Shown: positions 1 through 43,191 of the stretch, piece after piece
Position numbering within the stretch: the stretch's first letter is position 1
Layout: the number at the start of each line of letters is the position of its first letter
Source of the DNA: a virus
Lineage: Duplodnaviria; Heunggongvirae; Uroviricota; Caudoviricetes
Reading direction: 5' to 3' (one strand)
IMG/VR virus record: IMGVR_UViG_3300045988_143263
DNA: 47,925 bases
Made by a program: the position numbers and the translations under genes
The notes under the pieces: model-generated
What the model was told of the DNA's origin: nothing
The model's input: only the letters and a program-made list of their open reading frames with translations
Databases searched by the model: none

Positions 1-60
1 TAGGAAATTTTTTCCCACCTGTAAAGCACTTTTTATATAAATCTATAATTATATAAGCAC
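1..60 (-). promoter_or_regulatory. 3' half of repeated promoter-leader cassette (partial copy at window start; continues from window end if circular)
   Basis: Near-identical to 38578..38636 and 32196..32253; contains TTTACA -35-like box (reverse strand) and TATATAATTATAGATTTATATAA motif. Confidence 0.5.
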
Positions 61-86
61 AAAAAAGCCCCTTTGCAACAGGGGCT
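61..86 (-). terminator. rho-independent terminator downstream of antitoxin gene
   Basis: Minus-strand hairpin (GCCCCU / AGGGGC stem) followed by a U6 run, ~16 nt past the stop of 102..401. Confidence 0.5.
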
Positions 87-4038: not shown

Positions 4039-4875
4039 GTGCAAAAAAATGGCGATACCTTGTCCGGTGGGCTTACTTTTGAAAATGACTCAATCCTTGC
4101 CTGGATTCGAAATACTGACTGGGCGAAGATTGGATTTAAAAATGATGCCGATGGTGACACTGATTCATACATGTGGTTTGAAACAGGCGACAACGGCAAT
4201 GAATATTTCAAATGGAGAAGCCGCCAGAGCACCACAACAAAAGACCTGATGACGCTGAAATGGGATGCACTAAATATTCTGGTAAATGCCGTCATTAATG
4301 GCAGTCTTGGAGTTGGTACGACGAATGCGTTAGGTGGTAGCTCTATTGTTCTTGGTGATAATGACACCGGATTTAAACAGAATGGAGACGGTATTCTGGA
4401 TGTTTATGCTAATAGTCAGCGTGTATTCCGCTTTCAGAATGGAGTGGCTATTGCTTTTAAAAATATTCAGGCCGGGGATGGTAAAAAATTCACGCTATCC
4501 AGCTCCAACACCTCCACAAAGAATGCAACGTTTAATTTATGGGGTGCTTCAACCCGTCCAGTAGTTGCAGAGTTAGGCGATGAGGCAGGATGGCATTTCT
4601 ATAGCCAGCGAAATACAGATAACTCGGTAATATTTTCTGTTAACGGTCAGATACAGCCCAGCAACTGGGGGAATTTTGATTCACGCTATGTAAAAGATGT
4701 TCGCCTGGGTACGCGTGTTGTTCAATTGATGGCGCGTGGTGGTCGTTATGAAAAAGCCGGACACGCAATTACCGGATTAAGAATCATTGGTGAAGTAGAT
4801 GGCGATGATGAAGCCATCTTCAGACCAATACAAAAATACATCAATGGCACATGGTATAACGTAGCACAGGTGTAA
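4039..4875 (+). CDS. alternative tail-fibre C-terminal variable segment (silent orientation; would fuse to the constant region after inversion)
   Basis: In-frame upstream peptide …LGLQETVN… matches the junction in the active fibre gene; C-terminus RPIQKYINGTWYNVAQV parallels the active fibre's [17 protein letters not shown]. Confidence 0.6.
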   Translation: MQKNGDTLSGGLTFENDSILAWIRNTDWAKIGFKNDADGDTDSYMWFETGDNGNEYFKWRSRQSTTTKDLMTLKWDALNILVNAVINGSLGVGTTNALGGSSIVLGDNDTGFKQNGDGILDVYANSQRVFRFQNGVAIAFKNIQAGDGKKFTLSSSNTSTKNATFNLWGASTRPVVAELGDEAGWHFYSQRNTDNSVIFSVNGQIQPSNWGNFDSRYVKDVRLGTRVVQLMARGGRYEKAGHAITGLRIIGEVDGDDEAIFRPIQKYINGTWYNVAQV

Positions 4876-4878
4876 ATT

Positions 4879-5406
4879 ATGCAGCATTTAAAAAATATTA
4901 AGTCAGGAAATCCAAAAACAAAAGAACAATATCAGCTAACAAAAAATTTTGATGTTATCTGGTTATGGTCCGAAGACGGTAAAAACTGGTATGAGGAAGT
5001 AAATAACTTTCAGGACGACACCATAAAGATTGTATACGACGAGAATAATATTATTGTCGCCATCACCAAAGATGCCTCCACGCTTAACCCTGAAGGCTAT
5101 AGCGTCGTTGAGATTCCAGATATAACAGCCAATCGTCGTGCCGATGATTCAGGGAAGTGGATGTTTAAGGACGGAACTGTGGTTAAGCGGATTTATACAG
5201 CAGACGAACAGCAACAACAGGCCGAATCACAAAAGGCCGTGTTGCTTTCTGAAGCTGAAAGCGTTATTCAGCCACTGGAACGTGCTGTCAGGCTGAATAT
5301 GGCGACGGATGAGGAACGCACACGACTGGAGTCATGGGAACGCTACAGCGTTCTGGTCAGCCGTGTGGATACAGCAAAGCCCGAATGGCCACAAAAGCCT
5401 GAGTAA
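4879..5406 (+). CDS. tail-fibre assembly protein (alternative copy, U'-like)
   Basis: 175 aa, paralogous to 5435..5974 ([18 protein letters not shown] vs [17 protein letters not shown]). Confidence 0.7.
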
Positions 5407-5411
5407 AAATT

Positions 5412-5430
5412 AAGGCCCAATATTGGGCCT
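5412..5430. terminator. bidirectional hairpin between convergent tail-fibre assembly genes
   Basis: aaggcccaatattgggcctt perfect hairpin between the stops at 5406 and 5435. Confidence 0.4.
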
Positions 5431-5434
5431 TCTC

Positions 5435-5974
5435 TCATTCTGGTTGTTCGGGAAACGTTACTGGCAGGCTGGAGGTGTCTGTAGATTCGACTTTCTGCGC
5501 ATAGAGCATCCACTCGGTTAATTTTTGTTTATTCTCGTCGGAAATGATGCCCAGCCGTAGCTGTGAGTCCCATAGCTGGGTTTTGTCCCTGACAAGTTGC
5601 AACAGGCTTTGTTTTTCATTTTCCGCTTGTTGTCGCTGCTCTTCCTCGGTATAAGTTCGCTTTATCACCGCGCCATCTTTGAACATCCAGTTACCCGAAA
5701 TATCAGCCCGTCTATTGGCTGTTATATCAGGCAACTCAACAACGCTTAAACCTTCTGGATTAATTACCGATACATCCTTATCAATAGCAACAATAATTCC
5801 CTCTGCTGTGTAAGCTAGCTTTATTGTGTCTTCCTGAAAGTTCTTTTGTTCTTCATACCAGTTTTTACCGTCTTCGGACCATAACCAGACAACGCCTGAG
5901 TTTTTAGTTAACAGGTACTGCTCTTTGGTTTTTGGATTGCCGGGTTTTATATTTTTTAAATGCATCATATTCAA
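5435..5974 (-). CDS. tail-fibre assembly protein (active orientation, U-like)
   Basis: 179 aa; overlaps the tail-fibre stop by 4 nt; paralogue of 4879..5406. Confidence 0.7.
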
Positions 5975-30176: not shown

Positions 30177-30421
30177 GCCGTTTATCCGCTAAAATCCCCT
30201 CGCTTGTGCAAGCAAGTGGGCCTCGGTTTGTATCCACGGCACCCTGTGGGTATGAATGACTGTCGTCAGGTCGCAACTGACGGCGGTCGCCCACCTTCCA
30301 GTAATAAAAAAGCCACCAGCATTAACTCCACAGCGAGCTGGAGTTAATGAGGCAGCTTTGGTTTGCGCATTATCGCAGCCCCTGATTAGCACAAGAGCTG
30401 CTGTAATGCGTTACGCAGGGA

Positions 30422-30739
30422 TCAAACGGAGGCAGCCGTTTCGTCGTCTTCAAGTACCGCGCCTTCTGGCAAATCAACACAGGCAAAAACAGGGCAGCCA
30501 GGATAACGATCATCTTCCATCGCAATCAGCATCGACTCACCGAACCACTCTGTGGTAGCACGGCCATCAGCCGCCTGATAGTGAATCAGATACTGGTTTT
30601 CGCCATTTGCATACTGAGCACGGGCTTGAACTTCTCCCCACTCTTCACTGATACGCATTGTTACCAGTTGGGATAATTCAAACTTAAACGGAACAGACTC
30701 TGCACCAATGGCAATCGGTTTATCTTCTTTCTTTTCCAT
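30422..30739 (-). CDS. hypothetical protein (start trimmed to MEKKEDK)
   Basis: Internal ATG at 30739 preceded by an AGGTGA RBS and an upstream terminator; ORF-track start at 30808 would run through that terminator. Confidence 0.35.
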   Translation of the reverse strand: MEKKEDKPIAIGAESVPFKFELSQLVTMRISEEWGEVQARAQYANGENQYLIHYQAADGRATTEWFGESMLIAMEDDRYPGCPVFACVDLPEGAVLEDDETAASV

Positions 30740-30750
30740 AACATCACCTG

Positions 30751-30780
30751 AAAATAAAAAGCCCCGCGACACCGCGAGGC
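30751..30780 (-). terminator. rho-independent terminator
   Basis: Minus-strand hairpin gcctcgcg-gtgt-cgcggggc followed by UUUUUAUUUU. Confidence 0.45.
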
Positions 30781-30937
30781 TGTAAGAGTTACTTTCGATA
30801 TAAATCAAGGCGCATTTGCTCCCGCTTAAGCCGAAAAGCTCTCTGCGCCACTAAGATGCGCCACAAGACACCAGCAATAACCACCAGCGAGATACAAAAA
30901 CACACGGCCACAACCATCAGAAAAATGCCAAGACCAT

Positions 30938-31144
30938 TCATGAAACTATCCATTCTTCAATGAATATCTCCAGTAATGTCAAGAGATACGCCGTCCCCAG
31001 CGCGGTTCCTACCGATATAGCTAAGACAAACCTCAAAGATAACGAGGTGTCTTTCGCTTTTCTCCAGACGTAAGCGCCAGCCAGAAATACCAACAAATCT
31101 CTTATTGGAAGCGGAAACCAGAACAAATCACTCGGCAAGTCCAC
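30938..31144 (-). CDS. small putative membrane protein
   Basis: 68-aa ORF with two hydrophobic segments. Confidence 0.3.
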   Translation of the reverse strand: MDLPSDLFWFPLPIRDLLVFLAGAYVWRKAKDTSLSLRFVLAISVGTALGTAYLLTLLEIFIEEWIVS

Positions 31145-31146
31145 GG

Positions 31147-31602
31147 TTATATCCTTCCATTCATTTTTATCGGATGACCAGATAGCCTTACGCAGTTGAG
31201 CTGTAAAGCTCCGGTATCAACTAAATAATCAACTAACATGATTAGAGATTCATATTCAGCCAGATAGCTAACCTGACGCATTCGACCGCCGTTGTTCTCC
31301 AGAATGTCGGCCACCTTTGCAGCCAACTCGCTTAGACAGGAGAACTTATTCCCATATATCGTTTTATACTCGCGCTTCTGGCATTCTTCGGCTTGCGGCT
31401 GGTTATCGAGAACTATCAGCGACCGATAACTATCAAGGAAGTCCACAATCTCATTCAGGCACTCTTTGGCTGCCTCATCGTGACTTTTTCCGTATGCTTC
31501 ATGGAGGACTTTCATCCTCATCATTGCTCCGTCACATATAGTCGAAAGCGCGTAAAGCACATCACTAACCGCCATTTCTTTTTCGGTGCTTGTCGAAGGC
31601 AT
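31147..31602 (-). CDS. hypothetical protein
   Basis: 151-aa ORF co-oriented in an operon-like array. Confidence 0.35.
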   Translation of the reverse strand: MPSTSTEKEMAVSDVLYALSTICDGAMMRMKVLHEAYGKSHDEAAKECLNEIVDFLDSYRSLIVLDNQPQAEECQKREYKTIYGNKFSCLSELAAKVADILENNGGRMRQVSYLAEYESLIMLVDYLVDTGALQLNCVRLSGHPIKMNGRI

Positions 31603-31676
31603 CCCATGTTCTCCTTTGTCTGGATGTAAAAAAGCCCCGGCAATTGCCGAGGCTCGTTGTTCGTTATCGTTACGGT

Positions 31677-31877
31677 TTAATGCTCGCGTCGTCCGGCGAC
31701 AACTTCGGATTTGTATTTCAGGTCGCCCAGCAAGAATTGCAGTTTAAGCATCTTTGCCGCTGTGTAGTTCCCTGATTCCACAACCTCTTTCATGAGGTCA
31801 TAAACGGTCGCTACATCATCAGCCAGGAACTCTTTGCGTTGCTGCTCAGTCGCACGTTTGAAGGAAATACGCATCAC
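31677..31877 (-). CDS. hypothetical protein
   Basis: 66-aa ORF overlapping the upstream gene by 4 nt. Confidence 0.3.
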   Translation of the reverse strand: MMRISFKRATEQQRKEFLADDVATVYDLMKEVVESGNYTAAKMLKLQFLLGDLKYKSEVVAGRREH

Positions 31878-32143
31878 TCATCATCTCCTGCCGCACATAC
31901 AACCTCACAAAAAACATCAGCGGAATGTTTCTCCTTGAACGAATGACGCTCAAAACCGCACTCAATATCAGGCGCAAAAACATCCACCACATACGGTCTT
32001 TCAGAATGTTTGTTTTCCCAACGATAAACCGTAGTGACGTTGAAATGTTTTAACGCTTCACGGAACTCAACGCTGCCCGTCAGGTTTTTTGAGGTCAGGT
32101 ATTGCAGGAGGTTTTTTACTACTTCACGGTCTTGTACTTTCAT
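31874..32143 (-). CDS. hypothetical protein (first gene downstream of a repeated promoter-leader cassette)
   Basis: 89-aa ORF; ATG at 32141..32143 directly follows the conserved leader …ccggagataacccg. Confidence 0.4.
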   Translation of the reverse strand: MKVQDREVVKNLLQYLTSKNLTGSVEFREALKHFNVTTVYRWENKHSERPYVVDVFAPDIECGFERHSFKEKHSADVFCEVVCAAGDDE

Positions 32144-32255
32144 CGGGTTATCTCCGGTTTAACCAGGGCGGGTATCGCTCGGTTTCGGGTATAACCATAG
32201 GAAATTTTTTCCCATCCGTAAAGCACTTTTTATATAAATCTATAATTATATAATT
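32144..32255 (-). promoter_or_regulatory. repeated promoter-leader cassette, copy A
   Basis: Near-identical to 38527..38645 and to window end plus start; minus strand reads TATATAATTATAGATTTATATAAAAAGTGC-TTTACG-17 nt-TATGGT-leader with GGAGA RBS. Confidence 0.5.
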
Positions 32256-32843
32256 CTATGACACTTGCCAGAGAGCATCATGCAACTGGATACCTCCGTT
32301 GCACTGGTTGCCCCAGCCATGCCAGCCATCAGGTAAATCACCGCGAGCAAACAGCTCAATACGAGGAACATCGCCTAACAGCTTTACCAGCTTGTCACGG
32401 ACCACATCAGGCTTCCGAGAATGCTCCAGACGAGGCGATGTAAACGACTGAATGATCCCCGCATCAAGACGTGTCGGTAGTTTGCCTTTCACTGCAAACA
32501 AGCAATCTTCACTGTTTGCACGAGTCATATGCCCCATCCCCATCACCAGCTTATCTGGTTGTCGGCTACCACATTTGTTCCATGTGAAGCCCTTCATGGT
32601 CATCAGCCTGAATCCCCATGCTTTCACCACCAGCAACGCTTCTTCTGGCTGAGTCGGAACCCACCACATGGCCAACAAACACGATTCAGGATTAGCAAGC
32701 TGCCAGACAGGAATACGAGCAATATCCTCAGCTTTCATCGTTGGATACTTAAAACCAGCGCCACGATTCCCATCCTTACACTTGTCTTTGTATTCCCAGG
32801 GGGGATCTGCATAAATCAGATTAAACAATGCAATTGCCTCCAT
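32256..32843 (-). CDS. MT-A70 family N6-adenine DNA methyltransferase
   Basis: 195 aa; catalytic DPPW motif (LIYADPPWEY). Confidence 0.75.
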   Translation of the reverse strand: MEAIALFNLIYADPPWEYKDKCKDGNRGAGFKYPTMKAEDIARIPVWQLANPESCLLAMWWVPTQPEEALLVVKAWGFRLMTMKGFTWNKCGSRQPDKLVMGMGHMTRANSEDCLFAVKGKLPTRLDAGIIQSFTSPRLEHSRKPDVVRDKLVKLLGDVPRIELFARGDLPDGWHGWGNQCNGGIQLHDALWQVS

Positions 32844-33151: not shown

Positions 33152-33227
33152 TGGTGGCCCCTACCGGATTTGAACCGATGACCGTGCGATTATGAGTCGC
33201 CTGCTCTAACCACTGAGCTAAGGGGCC
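33152..33227 (-). tRNA. tRNA with CAU anticodon (tRNA-Ile2/Met-like)
   Basis: 76 nt; cloverleaf with acceptor GGCCCCU/AGGGGCC, GCUC/GAGC D-stem, anticodon loop CUCAUAA, GGUUCAAAUCC T-arm and 3' CCA; 5' half resembles E. coli ileX from memory. Confidence 0.8.
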
Positions 33228-33396
33228 ATATTTGATCTGTTTGTCTGGTGTGGCGCCGCGCACGAAAATCCCAGCCAATAAATTCAGGATTTTTGGGCGC
33301 GGCGGCATATCAGACAAACATGGTTGATGCGTGCGCTAATGAGAAAAGCGCATAGAATGTTGTAACTATATATTTATATAATTATAGAAATATATA

Positions 33397-33606
33397 TTAC
33401 TTTGGACAGTTGATTTCCCATGCCCTGTTATGAGCCAGAATATCTTTCTTTGTCTGGCGGTCCATAACATCGATATCGTGATCAGTCAGGTAGATGGGCT
33501 TTACCCAATCACAGGCGGTATCAACCACCACCGGGACGCTTCCACGACTCCCGCAGCTCGCGATCAACATCGTCATCAGCCATATGGTTAACACTCTGCT
33601 GTACAT
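33397..33606 (-). CDS. Rz1-like outer-membrane lipoprotein spanin (o-spanin)
   Basis: 69 aa; signal peptide with lipobox LIASC; overlaps the 3' end of the Rz-like gene in another frame. Confidence 0.55.
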   Translation of the reverse strand: MYSRVLTIWLMTMLIASCGSRGSVPVVVDTACDWVKPIYLTDHDIDVMDRQTKKDILAHNRAWEINCPK

Positions 33607-37381: not shown

Positions 37382-37420
37382 TGTCGAGGCGTCCTTATAC
37401 ATTTATATAAATATATAATT

Positions 37421-37440
37421 CTATATACGGCGGGAGACGT
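37421..37440. terminator. GC-rich hairpin downstream of 37459..38526 (possible terminator/attenuator)
   Basis: cggcggga-gacg-tcccgccg, 8-bp perfect stem; no clean U-tract. Confidence 0.3.
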
Positions 37441-38526: not shown

Positions 38527-38647
38527 CAGATTTCTCCGGTTTAACCAGGGCGGGTATCGCTCGGTTTCGGGTATAACCTTAGGAAATTTTTTCCCACCTG
38601 TAAAGCACTTTTTATATAAATCTATAATTATATATTTATAGATTTTC
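38527..38647 (-). promoter_or_regulatory. repeated promoter-leader cassette, copy B (immediately downstream of Q-like gene)
   Basis: -35 TTTACA (rc of 38599..38604), 17-nt spacer, -10 TAAGGT (rc of 38576..38581), AT-rich upstream motif, ~45-nt leader with GGAGA RBS. Confidence 0.5.
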
Positions 38648-42360: not shown

Positions 42361-42475
42361 GCCCGCTTATATGATTATAGATTTATATAATTATATAAAA
42401 CGCTTTCCATCCGCCAAAAAGTTGGTTATGCTTACCTCGTTCTATAAATATAGATTTATAGAATTATATAACCAA
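42361..42475. repeat. AT-rich iteron cluster upstream of parA (candidate centromere/operator)
   Basis: ATGATTATAGATTTATATAATTATATAA and ATAAATATAGATTTATAGAATTATATAA blocks. Confidence 0.5.
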
Positions 42476-42494
42476 ACACATGGAGTCTCGACAA

Positions 42495-43148
42495 ATGACT
42501 ATCTCTGTAGGTATTTTCAACGGAAAAGGCGGCGTAACCAAATCAACAATTGCCCGTGCTTTAGCAGTTGCTTATGCAAAGGCTGGCTGGAATGTATGCC
42601 TGATCGATATGGATGTGCTTAACGGAACGGTAACACGTTGGGTACAACGCAGAATGGCCAACAATATCGAACCAGCAATCGCGGCGCAGCCGTGCGGCAC
42701 ACCATCACAAGTCCAGAAAATCATCGAATCAGAAGTATACGACCTGGTTATCGTCGATGGCGGTGCCTACGCATCTGAATCAGTACCGAAGCTCTCTGAA
42801 TTTCTGGATATGGTTATTTTGCCAACCAGATTCTCTACCGATGACCTGGAAACCACCGTTAACACAGCTCACGGCATCGTTAAAAAGGGTGTACCAATCA
42901 AGAAAATTTGCATGGTGTTTTCCGGCGCGGCTGAAAACGAAGCTGACTATATTGAAGCCCAAGAGTACCTGGCTAATACGCCATACTTTGTTGTCGATAA
43001 GTACATTCCCCACAAGCCAGCTCTGAGCAAAGCTCAGGATAAGGGCTTAAGCCTCATTGAGTGCTCATACGTTGCGCCACGCAAAAAGGCAGACGACGTT
43101 ATTCAGGGGATTATCAACCAGCTTGAGGCTCTGACTACTGCCGCGTAA
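42495..43148 (+). CDS. parA: ParA-family partition ATPase
   Basis: Deviant Walker A box NGKGGVTKST ten residues from the chosen start; start set at the second ATG (GGAG RBS). Confidence 0.8.
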   Translation: MTISVGIFNGKGGVTKSTIARALAVAYAKAGWNVCLIDMDVLNGTVTRWVQRRMANNIEPAIAAQPCGTPSQVQKIIESEVYDLVIVDGGAYASESVPKLSEFLDMVILPTRFSTDDLETTVNTAHGIVKKGVPIKKICMVFSGAAENEADYIEAQEYLANTPYFVVDKYIPHKPALSKAQDKGLSLIECSYVAPRKKADDVIQGIINQLEALTTAA

Positions 43149-43180
43149 TATATAATTATAGTTTTATAGATTTATATAAG
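43147..43180. repeat. AT-rich iteron block between parA and the ParG-like gene
   Basis: ATATATAATTATAGTTTTATAGATTTATATAA. Confidence 0.45.
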
Positions 43181-43191
43181 AGGGGATACAC

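What the first reader, a model, noticed from the sequence alone, without database searches (positions are those of the whole stretch)
30422..32143. Array of five small co-oriented ORFs between the ParB gene and MT-A70 methylase, headed by a promoter cassette
Five minus-strand ORFs of about 66-151 aa (31874..32143, 31677..31877, 31147..31602, 30938..31144 membrane-like, 30422..30739) are driven by cassette copy A and separated from the last gene by an internal terminator (30751..30780). None is recognisable by eye. Small, tightly packed, promoter-proximal ORFs next to DNA-modification genes are the typical form of phage anti-defence or host-takeover loci.
Basis: inference. Interest (0 to 1): 0.5.

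Follow-up and report, generated by a model that had tools for sequence, protein, structure and literature searches.

The report
Orphan accessory gene block in phage-plasmid
A block of six (not five) small, real but uncharacterised genes sits in a swap-prone cargo slot between the lysis and DNA-packaging genes of a 48-kb E. coli phage-plasmid; it may counter bacterial defences, but the only support for that is its position.

Summary
All five ORFs are at the stated coordinates, but the array has six genes. A 54-aa membrane protein (30789..30953) was missed. There are three hairpin terminators, not one. The window is a ~48-kb myovirus-type phage-plasmid found in 74 of 5,426 complete E. coli genomes, including the ATCC 25922 plasmid.

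All six genes show coding signal against diverged relatives, which keep the same order, promoter cassette and terminator positions. The array diverges much faster than its flanks (28-49% vs 76-81% amino-acid identity) and is mosaic among near-identical plasmids. Plaque-forming Yersinia phages lack ORF1 or ORF5.

No gene matches Pfam, NCBIfam, PADLOC or PDB sequences; PHROGs matches are all "unknown function". AlphaFold models were unusable (pLDDT 48-50). ORF5 belongs to the phiP27 L33 family, which usually sits after the lysis cassette in temperate phages.

One more distant relative carries an Acb2 (anti-CBASS sponge) homologue in the same slot. This is the only positive evidence for anti-defence.

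Verdict: a real accessory (moron-type) cluster. The anti-defence reading is plausible but unproven (about 0.3-0.4). Superinfection exclusion, lysis or virion accessory roles remain open. Interest is moderate to low.

The parts
32141..32258 (-). Promoter cassette copy A. It contains AT-rich octads (32226-32258, overlapping the MT-A70 stop), -35 TTTACG (32222-32217), a 17-nt spacer holding the palindrome GGGAAAAAATTTCC (32213-32200), -10 TATGGT (32199-32194), a leader of about 50 nt, SD GGAG (32155-32152) and the ORF1 ATG (32143).
   Evidence: Three near-identical copies in the window. Coordinates. The same promoter and leader stand upstream of the ORF1 homologue in L012 and L013, at 88% identity. 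The leader folds at -13 kcal/mol, z -3.35. Promoter activity is inferred, not shown.
31874..32143 (-). ORF1, 89 aa, soluble, pI 5.5. Orphan (phrog_6143, unknown function). Its N-terminal ~80 aa resemble the N-terminus of a 227-aa protein of Erwinia phages Pavtok and PEp14.
   Evidence: pN 0.17 vs pS 0.67 against L012. Absent from L007 and from Yersinia phages vB_YpM_41/44.
31677..31874 (-). ORF2, 65 aa from the ATG that overlaps the ORF1 stop (translational coupling). Basic (pI 9.0). Found only in this phage-plasmid family (phrog_6621).
   Evidence: pN 0.17 vs pS 0.83 against L012. Present in every array-bearing relative examined; L014 and more distant relatives carry other genes in the slot.
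31628..31655 (-). Intrinsic terminator T1 between ORF2 and ORF3 (10-bp stem, 7 GC pairs, T-run).
   Evidence: dG -18.8 kcal/mol, z -5.35. A terminator with a different sequence occupies the same position in L012 and L013.
31147..31602 (-). ORF3, 151 aa, acidic. N-terminal helical hairpin domain plus a C-terminal domain of about 65 aa. An extremely rare family.
   Evidence: Exhaustive HMMER gave 9 hits in 1.84 billion representatives, three of them repeat-protein artefacts. Modular variants of 99, 123, 251, 260 and 323 aa exist. pN 0.39 vs pS 0.67. AF2 pLDDT 49.6.
30938..31144 (-). ORF4, 68 aa, GTG start with a good RBS. Hydrophobic: one clear TM segment at residues 37-58 and a less hydrophobic N-terminal stretch.
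   Evidence: Not annotated by RefSeq, but a 67-aa ATG-start homologue sits at the same place in L013, with pN 0.38 vs pS 0.98.
30789..30953 (-). ORF4b, 54 aa: N-terminal TM helix plus a basic C-terminal tail. It overlaps the ORF4 stop.
   Evidence: 50-aa homologues of the same architecture, starting MDY-, occur in L012 and L013. It has the weakest coding signal of the six: pN 0.47 vs pS 0.63-0.68.
30751..30781 (-). Intrinsic terminator T2 between ORF4b and ORF5.
   Evidence: dG -16.6 kcal/mol, z -5.2. Position is conserved in L012 and L013 with different sequences.
30422..30739 (-). ORF5, 105 aa, very acidic (pI 4.2, net charge -13). Member of the phiP27 L33 family (phrog_1935), with a predicted beta-rich core at residues 19-56.
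   Evidence: pN 0.12 vs pS 0.63 against phiP27. In 79 IMG/VR loci the gene sits directly after the lysis cassette in most phiP27-like/lambdoid loci.
30303..30403 (-). Region 3' of ORF5. Hairpin at 30374-30403, whose flanks and stem arms recur after phiP27 L33. Then hairpin plus T-run T3 at 30303-30347, ahead of the ParB gene.
   Evidence: A terminator-like site lies at the same place in L013.

Best explanation
The region is a six-gene accessory (moron-type) cargo cluster. It fills the variable slot between the lysis/tRNA/MT-A70 block and the ParB-methylase/packaging block of an ATCC 25922-type E. coli phage-plasmid.

It is built as three units. The sigma-70-like cassette promoter PA drives ORF1 and ORF2, which are translationally coupled. 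Terminator T1 follows. Next come ORF3, ORF4 and ORF4b (ORF4/4b overlap), then terminator T2, then ORF5, then hairpin and T3. Transcription from PA should therefore fall off stepwise along the array. Anything reaching ORF3-ORF5 and the ParB genes needs terminator read-through. This step is inferred, not shown.

The products are four small soluble proteins and two small inner-membrane proteins. None belongs to a known family. They are not needed to make infectious virions. They therefore most likely act on the host cell or on competitors.

The single most probable role for the soluble members is counter-defence, acting alongside the flanking orphan methyltransferases. The ORF4/ORF4b pair may act at the membrane. 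The architecture, coding status and accessory status are shown. The anti-defence function is inference from position only.
For: - Genes are real: pN is well below pS for all six against relatives with saturated synonymous sites.
- The same order of genes, promoter and terminators is kept in L013, L012 and L145.
- The promoter cassette occurs three times and is more conserved than synonymous sites.
- The terminators are strong and conserved in position but not in sequence.
- Accessory status: amino-acid identity to L013 is 28-49% for the array against 76-81% for ParB and MT-A70.
- There are at least five structural variants among plasmids 95-99% identical in DNA: ORF1 loss, ORF3 C-terminal swap, loss of ORF4b and ORF5, ORF5 replacement, and a Tfa::ORF5 fusion. 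The adjacent 2-kb ParB module is single-piece and at least 99% identical in 62 of 71 records.
- Plaque-forming Yersinia phages vB_YpM_41/44 lack ORF1. vB_YpM_39 lacks ORF5 and the ORF3 C-domain.
- The slot holds other cargo in further relatives: an Acb2 homologue in L014 (Pfam 64.5 bits; PDB 7UQ2 Vs.4 at 3e-8 and 8H2J p26 at 4.5e-7), and unknown ORFs in Lelliottia and Pantoea.
- The flanks are DNA methyltransferases.
- ORF5 is strongly acidic.
- Homologues of the ORF3 C-domain and of ORF5, plus a small TM ORF, lie side by side in the same lysis-to-terminase slot of an unrelated lambda-like phage, L142.
Against: - No similarity to any validated anti-defence protein, or to anything else, in Pfam, NCBIfam, PADLOC, PDB sequences or PDB profiles.
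- Structure prediction failed (pLDDT 48 and 50), so fold-level tests were impossible. Foldseek gave nothing below E = 1.
- The array lies after the lysis genes and next to packaging genes. The ORF5 family elsewhere has no promoter of its own and rides the late transcript. This position is atypical for anti-defence proteins that must act early.
- All six genes are kept in order across about 50% protein divergence (L013). That looks more like a conserved functional module than fast-turnover cargo.
- Two of the six are membrane proteins.
- No dedicated anti-defence HMM library was available.
- Promoter activity, timing and terminator efficiency are unmeasured.
Confidence: 0.4

Rival explanations
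1. Lysogen-benefit cargo. The cluster, especially the small membrane proteins ORF4 and ORF4b, is expressed from PA in the plasmid-prophage state. It protects the carrier cell by superinfection exclusion or a new abortive-infection or defence function, or it otherwise changes the host's phenotype.
For: - The slot between lysis and packaging is the classical lambdoid moron slot, and ORF5/L33 relatives sit there in dozens of prophages.
- PA looks like a housekeeping sigma-70 promoter that needs no obvious late activator.
- T1-T3 would keep packaging genes silent while still allowing expression of the promoter-proximal genes.
- ORF4 and ORF4b are small TM proteins, like known exclusion proteins (own knowledge: HK97 gp15, T4 Imm, P22 SieA).
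- The genes are dispensable for plaque formation.
Against: - No PADLOC hit.
- No lipoprotein or signal-peptide features typical of Bor- or Cor-type conversion genes.
- AT-rich repeats and a palindrome inside the promoter suggest PA is a repressed promoter, not a constitutive one.
- ORF5 homologues lack a promoter of their own in phiP27.
Confidence: 0.2
2. Late-stage helper module. The proteins assist lysis timing, packaging or the virion. For example, they could be cytoplasmic or membrane regulators of the holins, or small proteins that are packaged or attached to fibres and delivered into the next host (P1 Dar-like logic). On this reading they belong to the late programme and are not free cargo.
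For: - The ORF5/L33 family is tied to the 3' end of lysis cassettes in most of 79 loci, whichever packaging module follows.
- It lies between the small terminase and head-completion genes in P2-like ESSI2 phages.
- Homologues of the ORF3 C-domain and ORF5, plus a small TM ORF, recur together after a holin in L142.
- In one plasmid lineage and in Yersinia phages vB_YpM_41/44, the ORF5 domain is fused in frame behind a tail-fibre-assembly N-domain as an intact 237-aa protein.
- Some ORF3 variants end in beta-helix-like ITISAP/VTI repeats.
- All six genes are syntenic across deep divergence.
Against: - In the window the array is separated from the lysis genes by a tRNA, a terminator, MT-A70 and its own promoter.
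- The phage already has two holins, an endolysin and spanin-like genes.
- Functional phages lack ORF1 or ORF5.
- No match to holin, antiholin, spanin, scaffold or Tfa families for the window's own ORFs.
- The Phage_spike hit is not significant (E = 0.15).
Confidence: 0.2
3. Regulatory pair. ORF1 and ORF2, the coupled genes just downstream of the shared promoter cassette, are regulators. ORF2 is small and basic. They could control terminator read-through or cassette promoter activity, and so the transition to packaging and structural gene expression.
For: - ORF2 is present in every array-bearing relative examined, and ORF1-ORF2 coupling is conserved.
- Three conserved terminators stand between PA and the packaging genes. 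This implies some read-through mechanism.
- ORF2 has pI 9.0.
Against: - No HTH or other DNA- or RNA-binding domain was detected.
- ORF1 is dispensable.
- The more distant relative L014 has neither gene but keeps the ParB/packaging module.
- This reading says nothing about ORF3-ORF5.
Confidence: 0.1
4. Chance ORFs: the array is non-coding spacer with accidental reading frames.
For: RefSeq skips ORF4. ORF4b has the weakest selection signal.
Against: Orthologues share order, length, start context and architecture, with pN well below pS. Most are annotated in more than 60 plasmids. PHROG families exist for ORF1, ORF2, ORF3 and ORF5.
Confidence: 0.02

Closest known systems
Lambdoid 'morons' in the lysis-to-packaging slot (lambda bor, HK97 gp15 type; own knowledge of Hendrix/Juhala work)
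   Same: Extra small genes lie between conserved late modules. They are present or absent among close relatives, are bounded by hairpin terminators, and are not needed for virion production. ORF5/L33 occupies exactly this slot in phiP27-like and lambda-like prophages.
   Different: Here six genes form a block that keeps its order across about 50% protein divergence. Only the first unit has a recognisable promoter. GC content (0.44-0.48) differs little from the flanks (about 0.50). No function such as serum resistance or exclusion is known.
Phage anti-defence gene clusters, e.g. loci with Acb2/Tad1 sponges or the P1 Dar anti-restriction system (Acb2/Tad1 papers listed by title and abstract; P1 Dar as summarised in bioRxiv 10.1101/2025.09.12.675607)
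   Same: Small genes are tightly packed in a variable region next to DNA-modification genes. The equivalent slot in relative L014 encodes an Acb2 homologue. One member is acidic.
   Different: No gene of the window matches any validated anti-defence family. Expression timing is unknown. The location is late-proximal. Two members are membrane proteins.
phiP27 L33 / PHROG 1935 family (ORF5 only)
   Same: 80% amino-acid identity to phiP27 L33. PHROG E = 5e-60 over the full length. The same downstream hairpin is present.
   Different: The family itself has no known function. The window's copy has a different, short C-terminus. Sister plasmids carry a 136-aa form or a 237-aa Tfa-fused form.
Variable cargo hotspots of P2-like phages and satellites (own knowledge: old, tin, Z/fun loci)
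   Same: A fixed position between conserved genes where different cargo is found in different relatives.
   Different: Those hotspots mostly hold recognisable defence systems. PADLOC finds none here or in the relatives' cargo.

Membership tests
Anti-defence locus | At least one gene is homologous to an experimentally validated anti-defence protein. | tested here: not met
   No hit for any of the six ORFs in Pfam (which includes Acb2_Tad1, Ocr, ArdA and similar), NCBIfam, or PDB sequence and profile searches. The feature is met only by the positional counterpart in relative L014. No dedicated anti-defence HMM set was available.
Anti-defence locus | Small genes clustered in a variable region flanked by conserved genes. 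| tested here: met
   Mosaic variants occur on a 95-99% identical DNA background, while the ParB flank is collinear. The array also diverges faster than its flanks.
Anti-defence locus | Expressed early or immediately on entry, or packaged into the virion. | not testable with these tools
   Only a sigma-70-like promoter consensus is available. There are no expression data.
Anti-defence locus | Inhibits a defined defence system. | not testable with these tools
   Needs experiments.
Moron | A gene or genes present between conserved neighbours in some relatives and absent or replaced in others. | tested here: met
   ORF1 is absent in L007 and vB_YpM_41/44. ORF5 is replaced in vB_YpM_39. ORF4b and ORF5 are absent in L009. 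The slot is filled differently in L014, L040 and L041.
Moron | Own promoter and own terminator. | tested here: inconclusive
   Terminators follow each unit. Only the first unit has a promoter-like site. ORF5 and its phiP27 homologue have none.
Moron | Base composition distinct from the surroundings. | tested here: not met
   GC is 0.44-0.48 in the array against about 0.50 in the flanks, with no sharp break.
PHROG 1935 / phiP27 L33 (ORF5) | Full-length sequence match to the family profile. | tested here: met
   E = 5.1e-60 over residues 1-101 of a 116-position profile. 80% identity to phiP27 L33.
Tail fibre assembly protein (Caudo_TAP) (ORF5) | Tfa N-terminal domain is present. | tested here: not met
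   The window's ORF5 has no Caudo_TAP match. Only the 237-aa fused variant in L052 and L002 does (25.1 bits).
Known defence systems (PADLOC) | Match to a defence-system protein model. | tested here: not met
   Zero hits at E <= 1 for all six ORFs.
Type II toxin-antitoxin pair (ORF1-ORF2) | Two small coupled genes with homology to toxin or antitoxin families. | tested here: not met
   Coupling is present (TGATG overlap), but there are no Pfam, NCBIfam or PADLOC hits. ORF1 can be lost while ORF2 stays.
Holin / antiholin / spanin (ORF4, ORF4b) | Match to a lysis-protein family, or spanin architecture (lipobox or periplasmic domain). | tested here: not met
   No holin or spanin family hit. No lipobox. 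TM helices only.

The most novel reading that the evidence does not exclude
One or more of these orphan families is a new anti-defence protein family. The best candidates are the acidic ORF5/L33 family, which is present in a large number of E. coli, Salmonella, Citrobacter and Enterobacter prophages and in Burkholderia phages, and its recurrent partner, the ORF3 C-domain. The lysis-to-packaging slot of the ATCC 25922-type phage-plasmids would then be an anti-defence island. Its contents could be delivered late or packaged, as with P1 Dar, rather than expressed early.
Probability: 0.25. Interest if true: 0.65.

Novelty: new member of a known kind. Interest (0 to 1): 0.35.

Why it matters
If any of these proteins blocks a bacterial immune system, it would add new anti-defence families. 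One of them, L33/ORF5, is widespread in enterobacterial prophages.

It would also mark a fixed, easily located slot in a phage-plasmid carried by the reference strain ATCC 25922. That slot could then be mined across relatives, one of which already holds an Acb2 homologue there.

If instead the block controls exclusion, lysis or virion loading, it would annotate a recurrent but ignored passenger of the lysis-packaging junction. As it stands, the region is a well-delimited set of candidates, not a discovery.

Tried and rejected
- Family scans of all six ORFs against Pfam, NCBIfam and PADLOC gave nothing. PHROGs gave only 'unknown function' families.
- PDB sequence searches with single sequences and with profiles for ORF1, ORF2, ORF3 and ORF5 gave nothing below E = 0.03. 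The top hits were designed helical bundles.
- AlphaFold2 on ORF5 (24-sequence alignment) gave pLDDT 48.2, and on ORF3 (14 sequences) gave 49.6. Both are unusable.
- Foldseek of the ORF5 model against PDB gave a best E of 1.7, with Tudor/SH3-like hits at chance level. The ORF3 model and the other fold libraries were not searched, because low-confidence models give meaningless matches.
- Exhaustive HMMER of ORF3 gave nine hits. Three (ankyrin, TPR and repeat proteins) were rejected as repeat or low-complexity artefacts.
- Weak leads were not accepted: DUF1804 for the ORF3 N-domain (E = 0.003-0.007, below cut-off); DUF7343 (E = 0.04); Phage_spike (E = 0.15); DUF2513 for the vB_YpM_39 replacement gene (E = 0.0015, below cut-off). 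An HTH guess for ORF1 made by eye got no Pfam support.
- Rfam found only the tRNA above threshold.
- No paralogues of the six ORFs exist elsewhere in the window.
- Literature searches for the protein accessions, phiP27 L33 and the phage-plasmid family returned nothing relevant. vB_YpM_HQ103 turned out to be an unrelated 32-kb phage, and pSLy3 belongs to the SSU5 group.
- The identity of L014 could not be established from PLSDB.
Full report
**Context**

The window is a circularly permuted, ~48-kb myovirus-type phage-plasmid. It is 98.7% identical over the region to E. coli plasmid NZ_CP062206.1. It matches 62 PLSDB plasmids and three plaque-forming Yersinia pestis phages, vB_YpM_39, 41 and 44. 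The array region matches 74 of 5,426 complete E. coli genomes, almost always on a plasmid of about 48 kb (215 of 218 places). One of these is the 48,488-bp plasmid of ATCC 25922.

On the minus strand the gene order is: two holins, a GH108 endolysin, spanin-like genes, tRNA(CAT), a terminator, the MT-A70 methyltransferase, the array, ParB, a ParB-methyltransferase fusion, a hypothetical gene, ParB/Srx, a further hypothetical gene, the large terminase subunit and the structural genes.

**The observation**

Three corrections are needed.

- **There are six genes.** A 54-aa ORF at 30789..30953 has one TM helix and a basic tail, and overlaps the stop codon of ORF4. RefSeq annotates a 50-aa version of it but skips ORF4. 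Both are conserved in diverged relatives.
- **ORF2 probably starts at the ATG at 31874.** This ATG overlaps the ORF1 stop.
- **There are three terminators.** T1 lies at 31628-31655 (dG -18.8 kcal/mol, z -5.35). T2 lies at 30751-30781 (dG -16.6, z -5.2). A weaker hairpin with a T-run, T3, lies at 30303-30347.

The promoter cassette is real.
- It has three copies of about 118 nt at 96-100% identity.
- Each copy contains -35 TTTACR, a 17-nt spacer that holds a palindrome, -10 TATGGT/TAAGGT/TATTAT, a conserved leader of about 50 nt, an SD and the start codon.
- Copy A keeps 104-105 of 118 nt in relatives L012 and L013. The flanking genes in those relatives are saturated at synonymous sites.
- The promoter scan independently flags TTTACA-17-TATGGT in both relatives.

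**Are these genes real?**

Yes. Relatives L012 and L013 (ParB 79-81% identical) carry the same layout between MT-A70 and ParB: PA, ORF1, ORF2, T1, ORF3, ORF4b, T2 and ORF5. L013 (as does L145) also has ORF4 and a T3-like site; L012 lacks ORF4 and carries an extra 97-aa ORF after ORF5.

Nonsynonymous differences are far below synonymous ones:

| Gene | pN / pS | Compared with |
|---|---|---|
| ORF1 | 0.17 / 0.67 | L012 |
| ORF2 | 0.17 / 0.83 | L012 |
| ORF3 | 0.39 / 0.67 | L013 |
| ORF4 | 0.38 / 0.98 | L013 |
| ORF5 | 0.12 / 0.63 | phiP27 |
| ORF4b | 0.47 / 0.63-0.68 | L012, L013 |

ORF4b is the weakest, but it keeps its TM-plus-basic-tail architecture. The terminators sit at the same positions with unrelated sequences, which argues that they are functional.

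**Are they accessory?**

Yes, on three lines of evidence.

1. *Faster divergence.* Amino-acid identity to L013 is 28-49% for the array, against 76-81% for the flanking MT-A70 and ParB.
2. *Mosaicism among near-identical plasmids.* Among plasmids 95-99% identical in DNA, most records cover only 82-93% of the array, in two or three pieces. The adjacent 2-kb ParB/ParB-MTase module is a single piece and at least 99% identical in 62 of 71 records. The variants seen are:
   - ORF1 deleted (L007, vB_YpM_41/44).
   - ORF3 C-domain replaced, giving a 99-aa form (ATCC 25922, L053, L008).
   - ORF4 truncated, and ORF4b and ORF5 lost (L009).
   - ORF5 with a 36-aa C-terminal extension (136 aa).
   - ORF5 replaced by a weakly DUF2513-like 135-aa gene (vB_YpM_39).
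   - ORF5 fused in frame behind a tail-fibre-assembly N-domain, giving a 237-aa protein.

   Because vB_YpM_39, 41 and 44 are plaque-forming phages, ORF1, ORF5 and the ORF3 C-domain are dispensable for lytic growth.
3. *Other cargo in more distant relatives.* Relatives that keep the ParB/ParB-MTase pair fill the slot differently:
   - L014 has a Cys-rich 165-aa ORF, a 91-aa Acb2 homologue and a 62-aa ORF.
   - Lelliottia has a 103-aa orphan.
   - Pantoea has five orphans.
   - Alphaproteobacterial relatives have small ORFs or a GNAT.

   The Acb2 homologue scores 64.5 bits on Pfam Acb2_Tad1_hairpin, against a cut-off of 27. It matches PDB 7UQ2 (T4 Vs.4) at 3e-8 and 8H2J (p26) at 4.5e-7.

**What are the proteins?**

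All are unknown.
- Pfam, NCBIfam and PADLOC give nothing. PHROGs place ORF1, ORF2, ORF3 and ORF5 in families of unknown function.
- ORF2, ORF3, ORF4 and ORF4b are confined to this phage-plasmid family. ORF1 is too, apart from 40% identity of its N-terminal 80 aa to the start of a 227-aa protein of Erwinia phages.
- An exhaustive HMMER search with ORF3 found only six true relatives among 1.84 billion representatives. They show a modular build: an N-terminal helical hairpin, one to three copies of a domain of about 65 aa, and in some a beta-helix-like tail.
- ORF5 (pI 4.2, net charge -13) belongs to the phiP27 L33 family. The family occurs in E. coli, Salmonella, Citrobacter and Enterobacter prophages, in P2-like ESSI2 phages and in Burkholderia phages.
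- Of 79 IMG/VR loci, three are copies of this phage-plasmid, three show only the L33 match, and in about 70 of the rest the L33 gene sits after the holin, endolysin and small-lipoprotein genes. The gene lies before whichever packaging module follows: HNH-TerS, lambda Nu1-A or ParB. No sigma-70 promoter of its own was found in phiP27.
- In an unrelated lambda-like contig, L142, three genes lie side by side in that same slot, each bounded by an identical GC-rich palindrome. They are a 94-aa homologue of the ORF3 C-domain, a 119-aa ORF5 homologue and a small TM ORF. This hints that ORF3, ORF5 and a small membrane protein work together.
- AlphaFold2 models of ORF5 and ORF3 had pLDDT 48 and 50, so fold comparison was not informative.

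**How it most likely works**

*Shown:* a conserved promoter-like cassette, three units separated by conserved terminators, coding genes, and accessory status.

*Inferred:*
- PA drives ORF1-ORF2 most strongly.
- T1-T3 attenuate transcription stepwise.
- Expression of ORF3-ORF5 and the ParB/packaging genes from this direction needs read-through.
- AT-rich octads upstream of the cassette and a palindrome in its spacer suggest the promoter is regulated.

*Function:* the products are not needed for virion production, so they probably act on the host or on competitors.
- Counter-defence is my leading guess at about 0.3-0.4. It rests on the flanking orphan methyltransferases, the Acb2 homologue in the same slot of a relative, the fast divergence and mosaicism, and the acidic ORF5.
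- Three rivals remain open: lysogen-benefit or exclusion functions (the two membrane proteins, the moron slot); late-stage lysis or virion helpers (linkage of L33 to lysis cassettes, the Tfa fusion, conserved synteny); and a regulatory role for ORF1-ORF2.
Coding signal is present, and the window's ORFs do not map to well-known structural families.

**Novelty and score**

This is an ordinary kind of feature: an accessory or moron cluster of orphans in a temperate phage. It is well delimited, sits in a tractable host, and has one positional link to a known anti-defence family. I rate it as a new member of a known kind, with interest 0.35. The most novel reading not excluded is that L33/ORF5, possibly with the ORF3 C-domain, is a new and widespread anti-defence family (probability about 0.25).

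Noticed in passing
window 33-64, 32230-32261, 33358-33405, 37387-37426, 38612-38643, 42367-42479, 43148-43187: AT-rich motifs with 8-bp periodicity (TTATATAA / TTATAGAT / TCTATAAT) lie upstream of all three promoter cassettes and of the tRNA. They also flank both ends of the 42480-43148 (+) ORF, which by position corresponds to the ParA gene annotated in the sister plasmid (not checked by alignment). They look like iterated sites for one small DNA-binding protein, perhaps a centromere-binding protein that also acts as a global repressor.
   Followed up: no
window 32200-32213 and the equivalent positions in cassette copies B and C; L012 3745-3760; L013 3493-3508: A palindrome, AGGAAAAWATTTCCT, sits in the -35/-10 spacer of every cassette copy, including those of the diverged relatives. 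It is followed by a conserved leader of about 50 nt that folds at -13 kcal/mol (z -3.35) and partly covers the SD.
   Followed up: partly
L052 412-1125 (-); L002 3111-3824 (-): In one plasmid lineage and in Yersinia phages vB_YpM_41/44, the ORF5 domain is fused in frame behind a tail-fibre-assembly N-domain. That domain is 37-43% identical to the window's own Tfa genes at 4879-5349 (+) and 5534-5968 (-). The fusion also has a 36-aa C-terminal extension, giving 237 aa. RefSeq names it 'tail fiber assembly protein'.
   Followed up: partly
L142 4925-6140: In an unrelated lambda-like contig, three genes are each bounded by the same perfect palindrome AAGTGGGCCCGYGGGCCCACTT. It occurs four times between the holin region and the Nu1-like terminase gene. 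The genes are an ORF3 C-domain homologue, an ORF5 homologue and a 56-aa TM ORF.
   Followed up: partly
L014 5233-5505 (+): A 91-aa Acb2/Vs.4-family (anti-CBASS sponge) homologue sits immediately upstream of ParB in a relative of about 47 kb. It scores 64.5 bits on Pfam and matches PDB 7UQ2 at 3e-8. The source organism could not be identified.
   Followed up: partly
ORF3 variants: L053 1211-1510 (-), L012 4602-4973, P0115, P0116: Several ORF3-family variants end in short beta-strand repeats (ITISAPVINISVTA, SITINAPAVTIVG, TVTIKASKVIVDAPEIVITS). These recall spike or needle beta-helices, but the Pfam Phage_spike hit is only E = 0.15.
   Followed up: no
L004 (phiP27) 4640-4830: The annotated phiP27 gene L32 appears to be in the wrong frame. 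Another frame encodes a 60-aa lipoprotein with a lipobox (…LVPFFLVGC…). A similar lipoprotein is present in Lelliottia locus L040 at 5397-5603.
   Followed up: no
window 33152-33227 (-): A tRNA with anticodon CAT. ARAGORN calls it tRNA-Met. RefSeq calls the ATCC 25922 plasmid copy tRNA-Ile, and GenBank calls the Yersinia phage copy tRNA-Met.
   Followed up: no
window 31628-31655 and 30751-30781: Terminators T1 and T2 share their stem arms (AGCCTCG…CGGGGCT followed by a T-run). They may be copies of one hairpin element.
   Followed up: no
L054 470-877 (-): In Yersinia phage vB_YpM_39 the ORF5 position is occupied by an unrelated 135-aa ORF. It has a weak full-length resemblance to DUF2513 (E = 0.0015, below cut-off).
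   Followed up: partly
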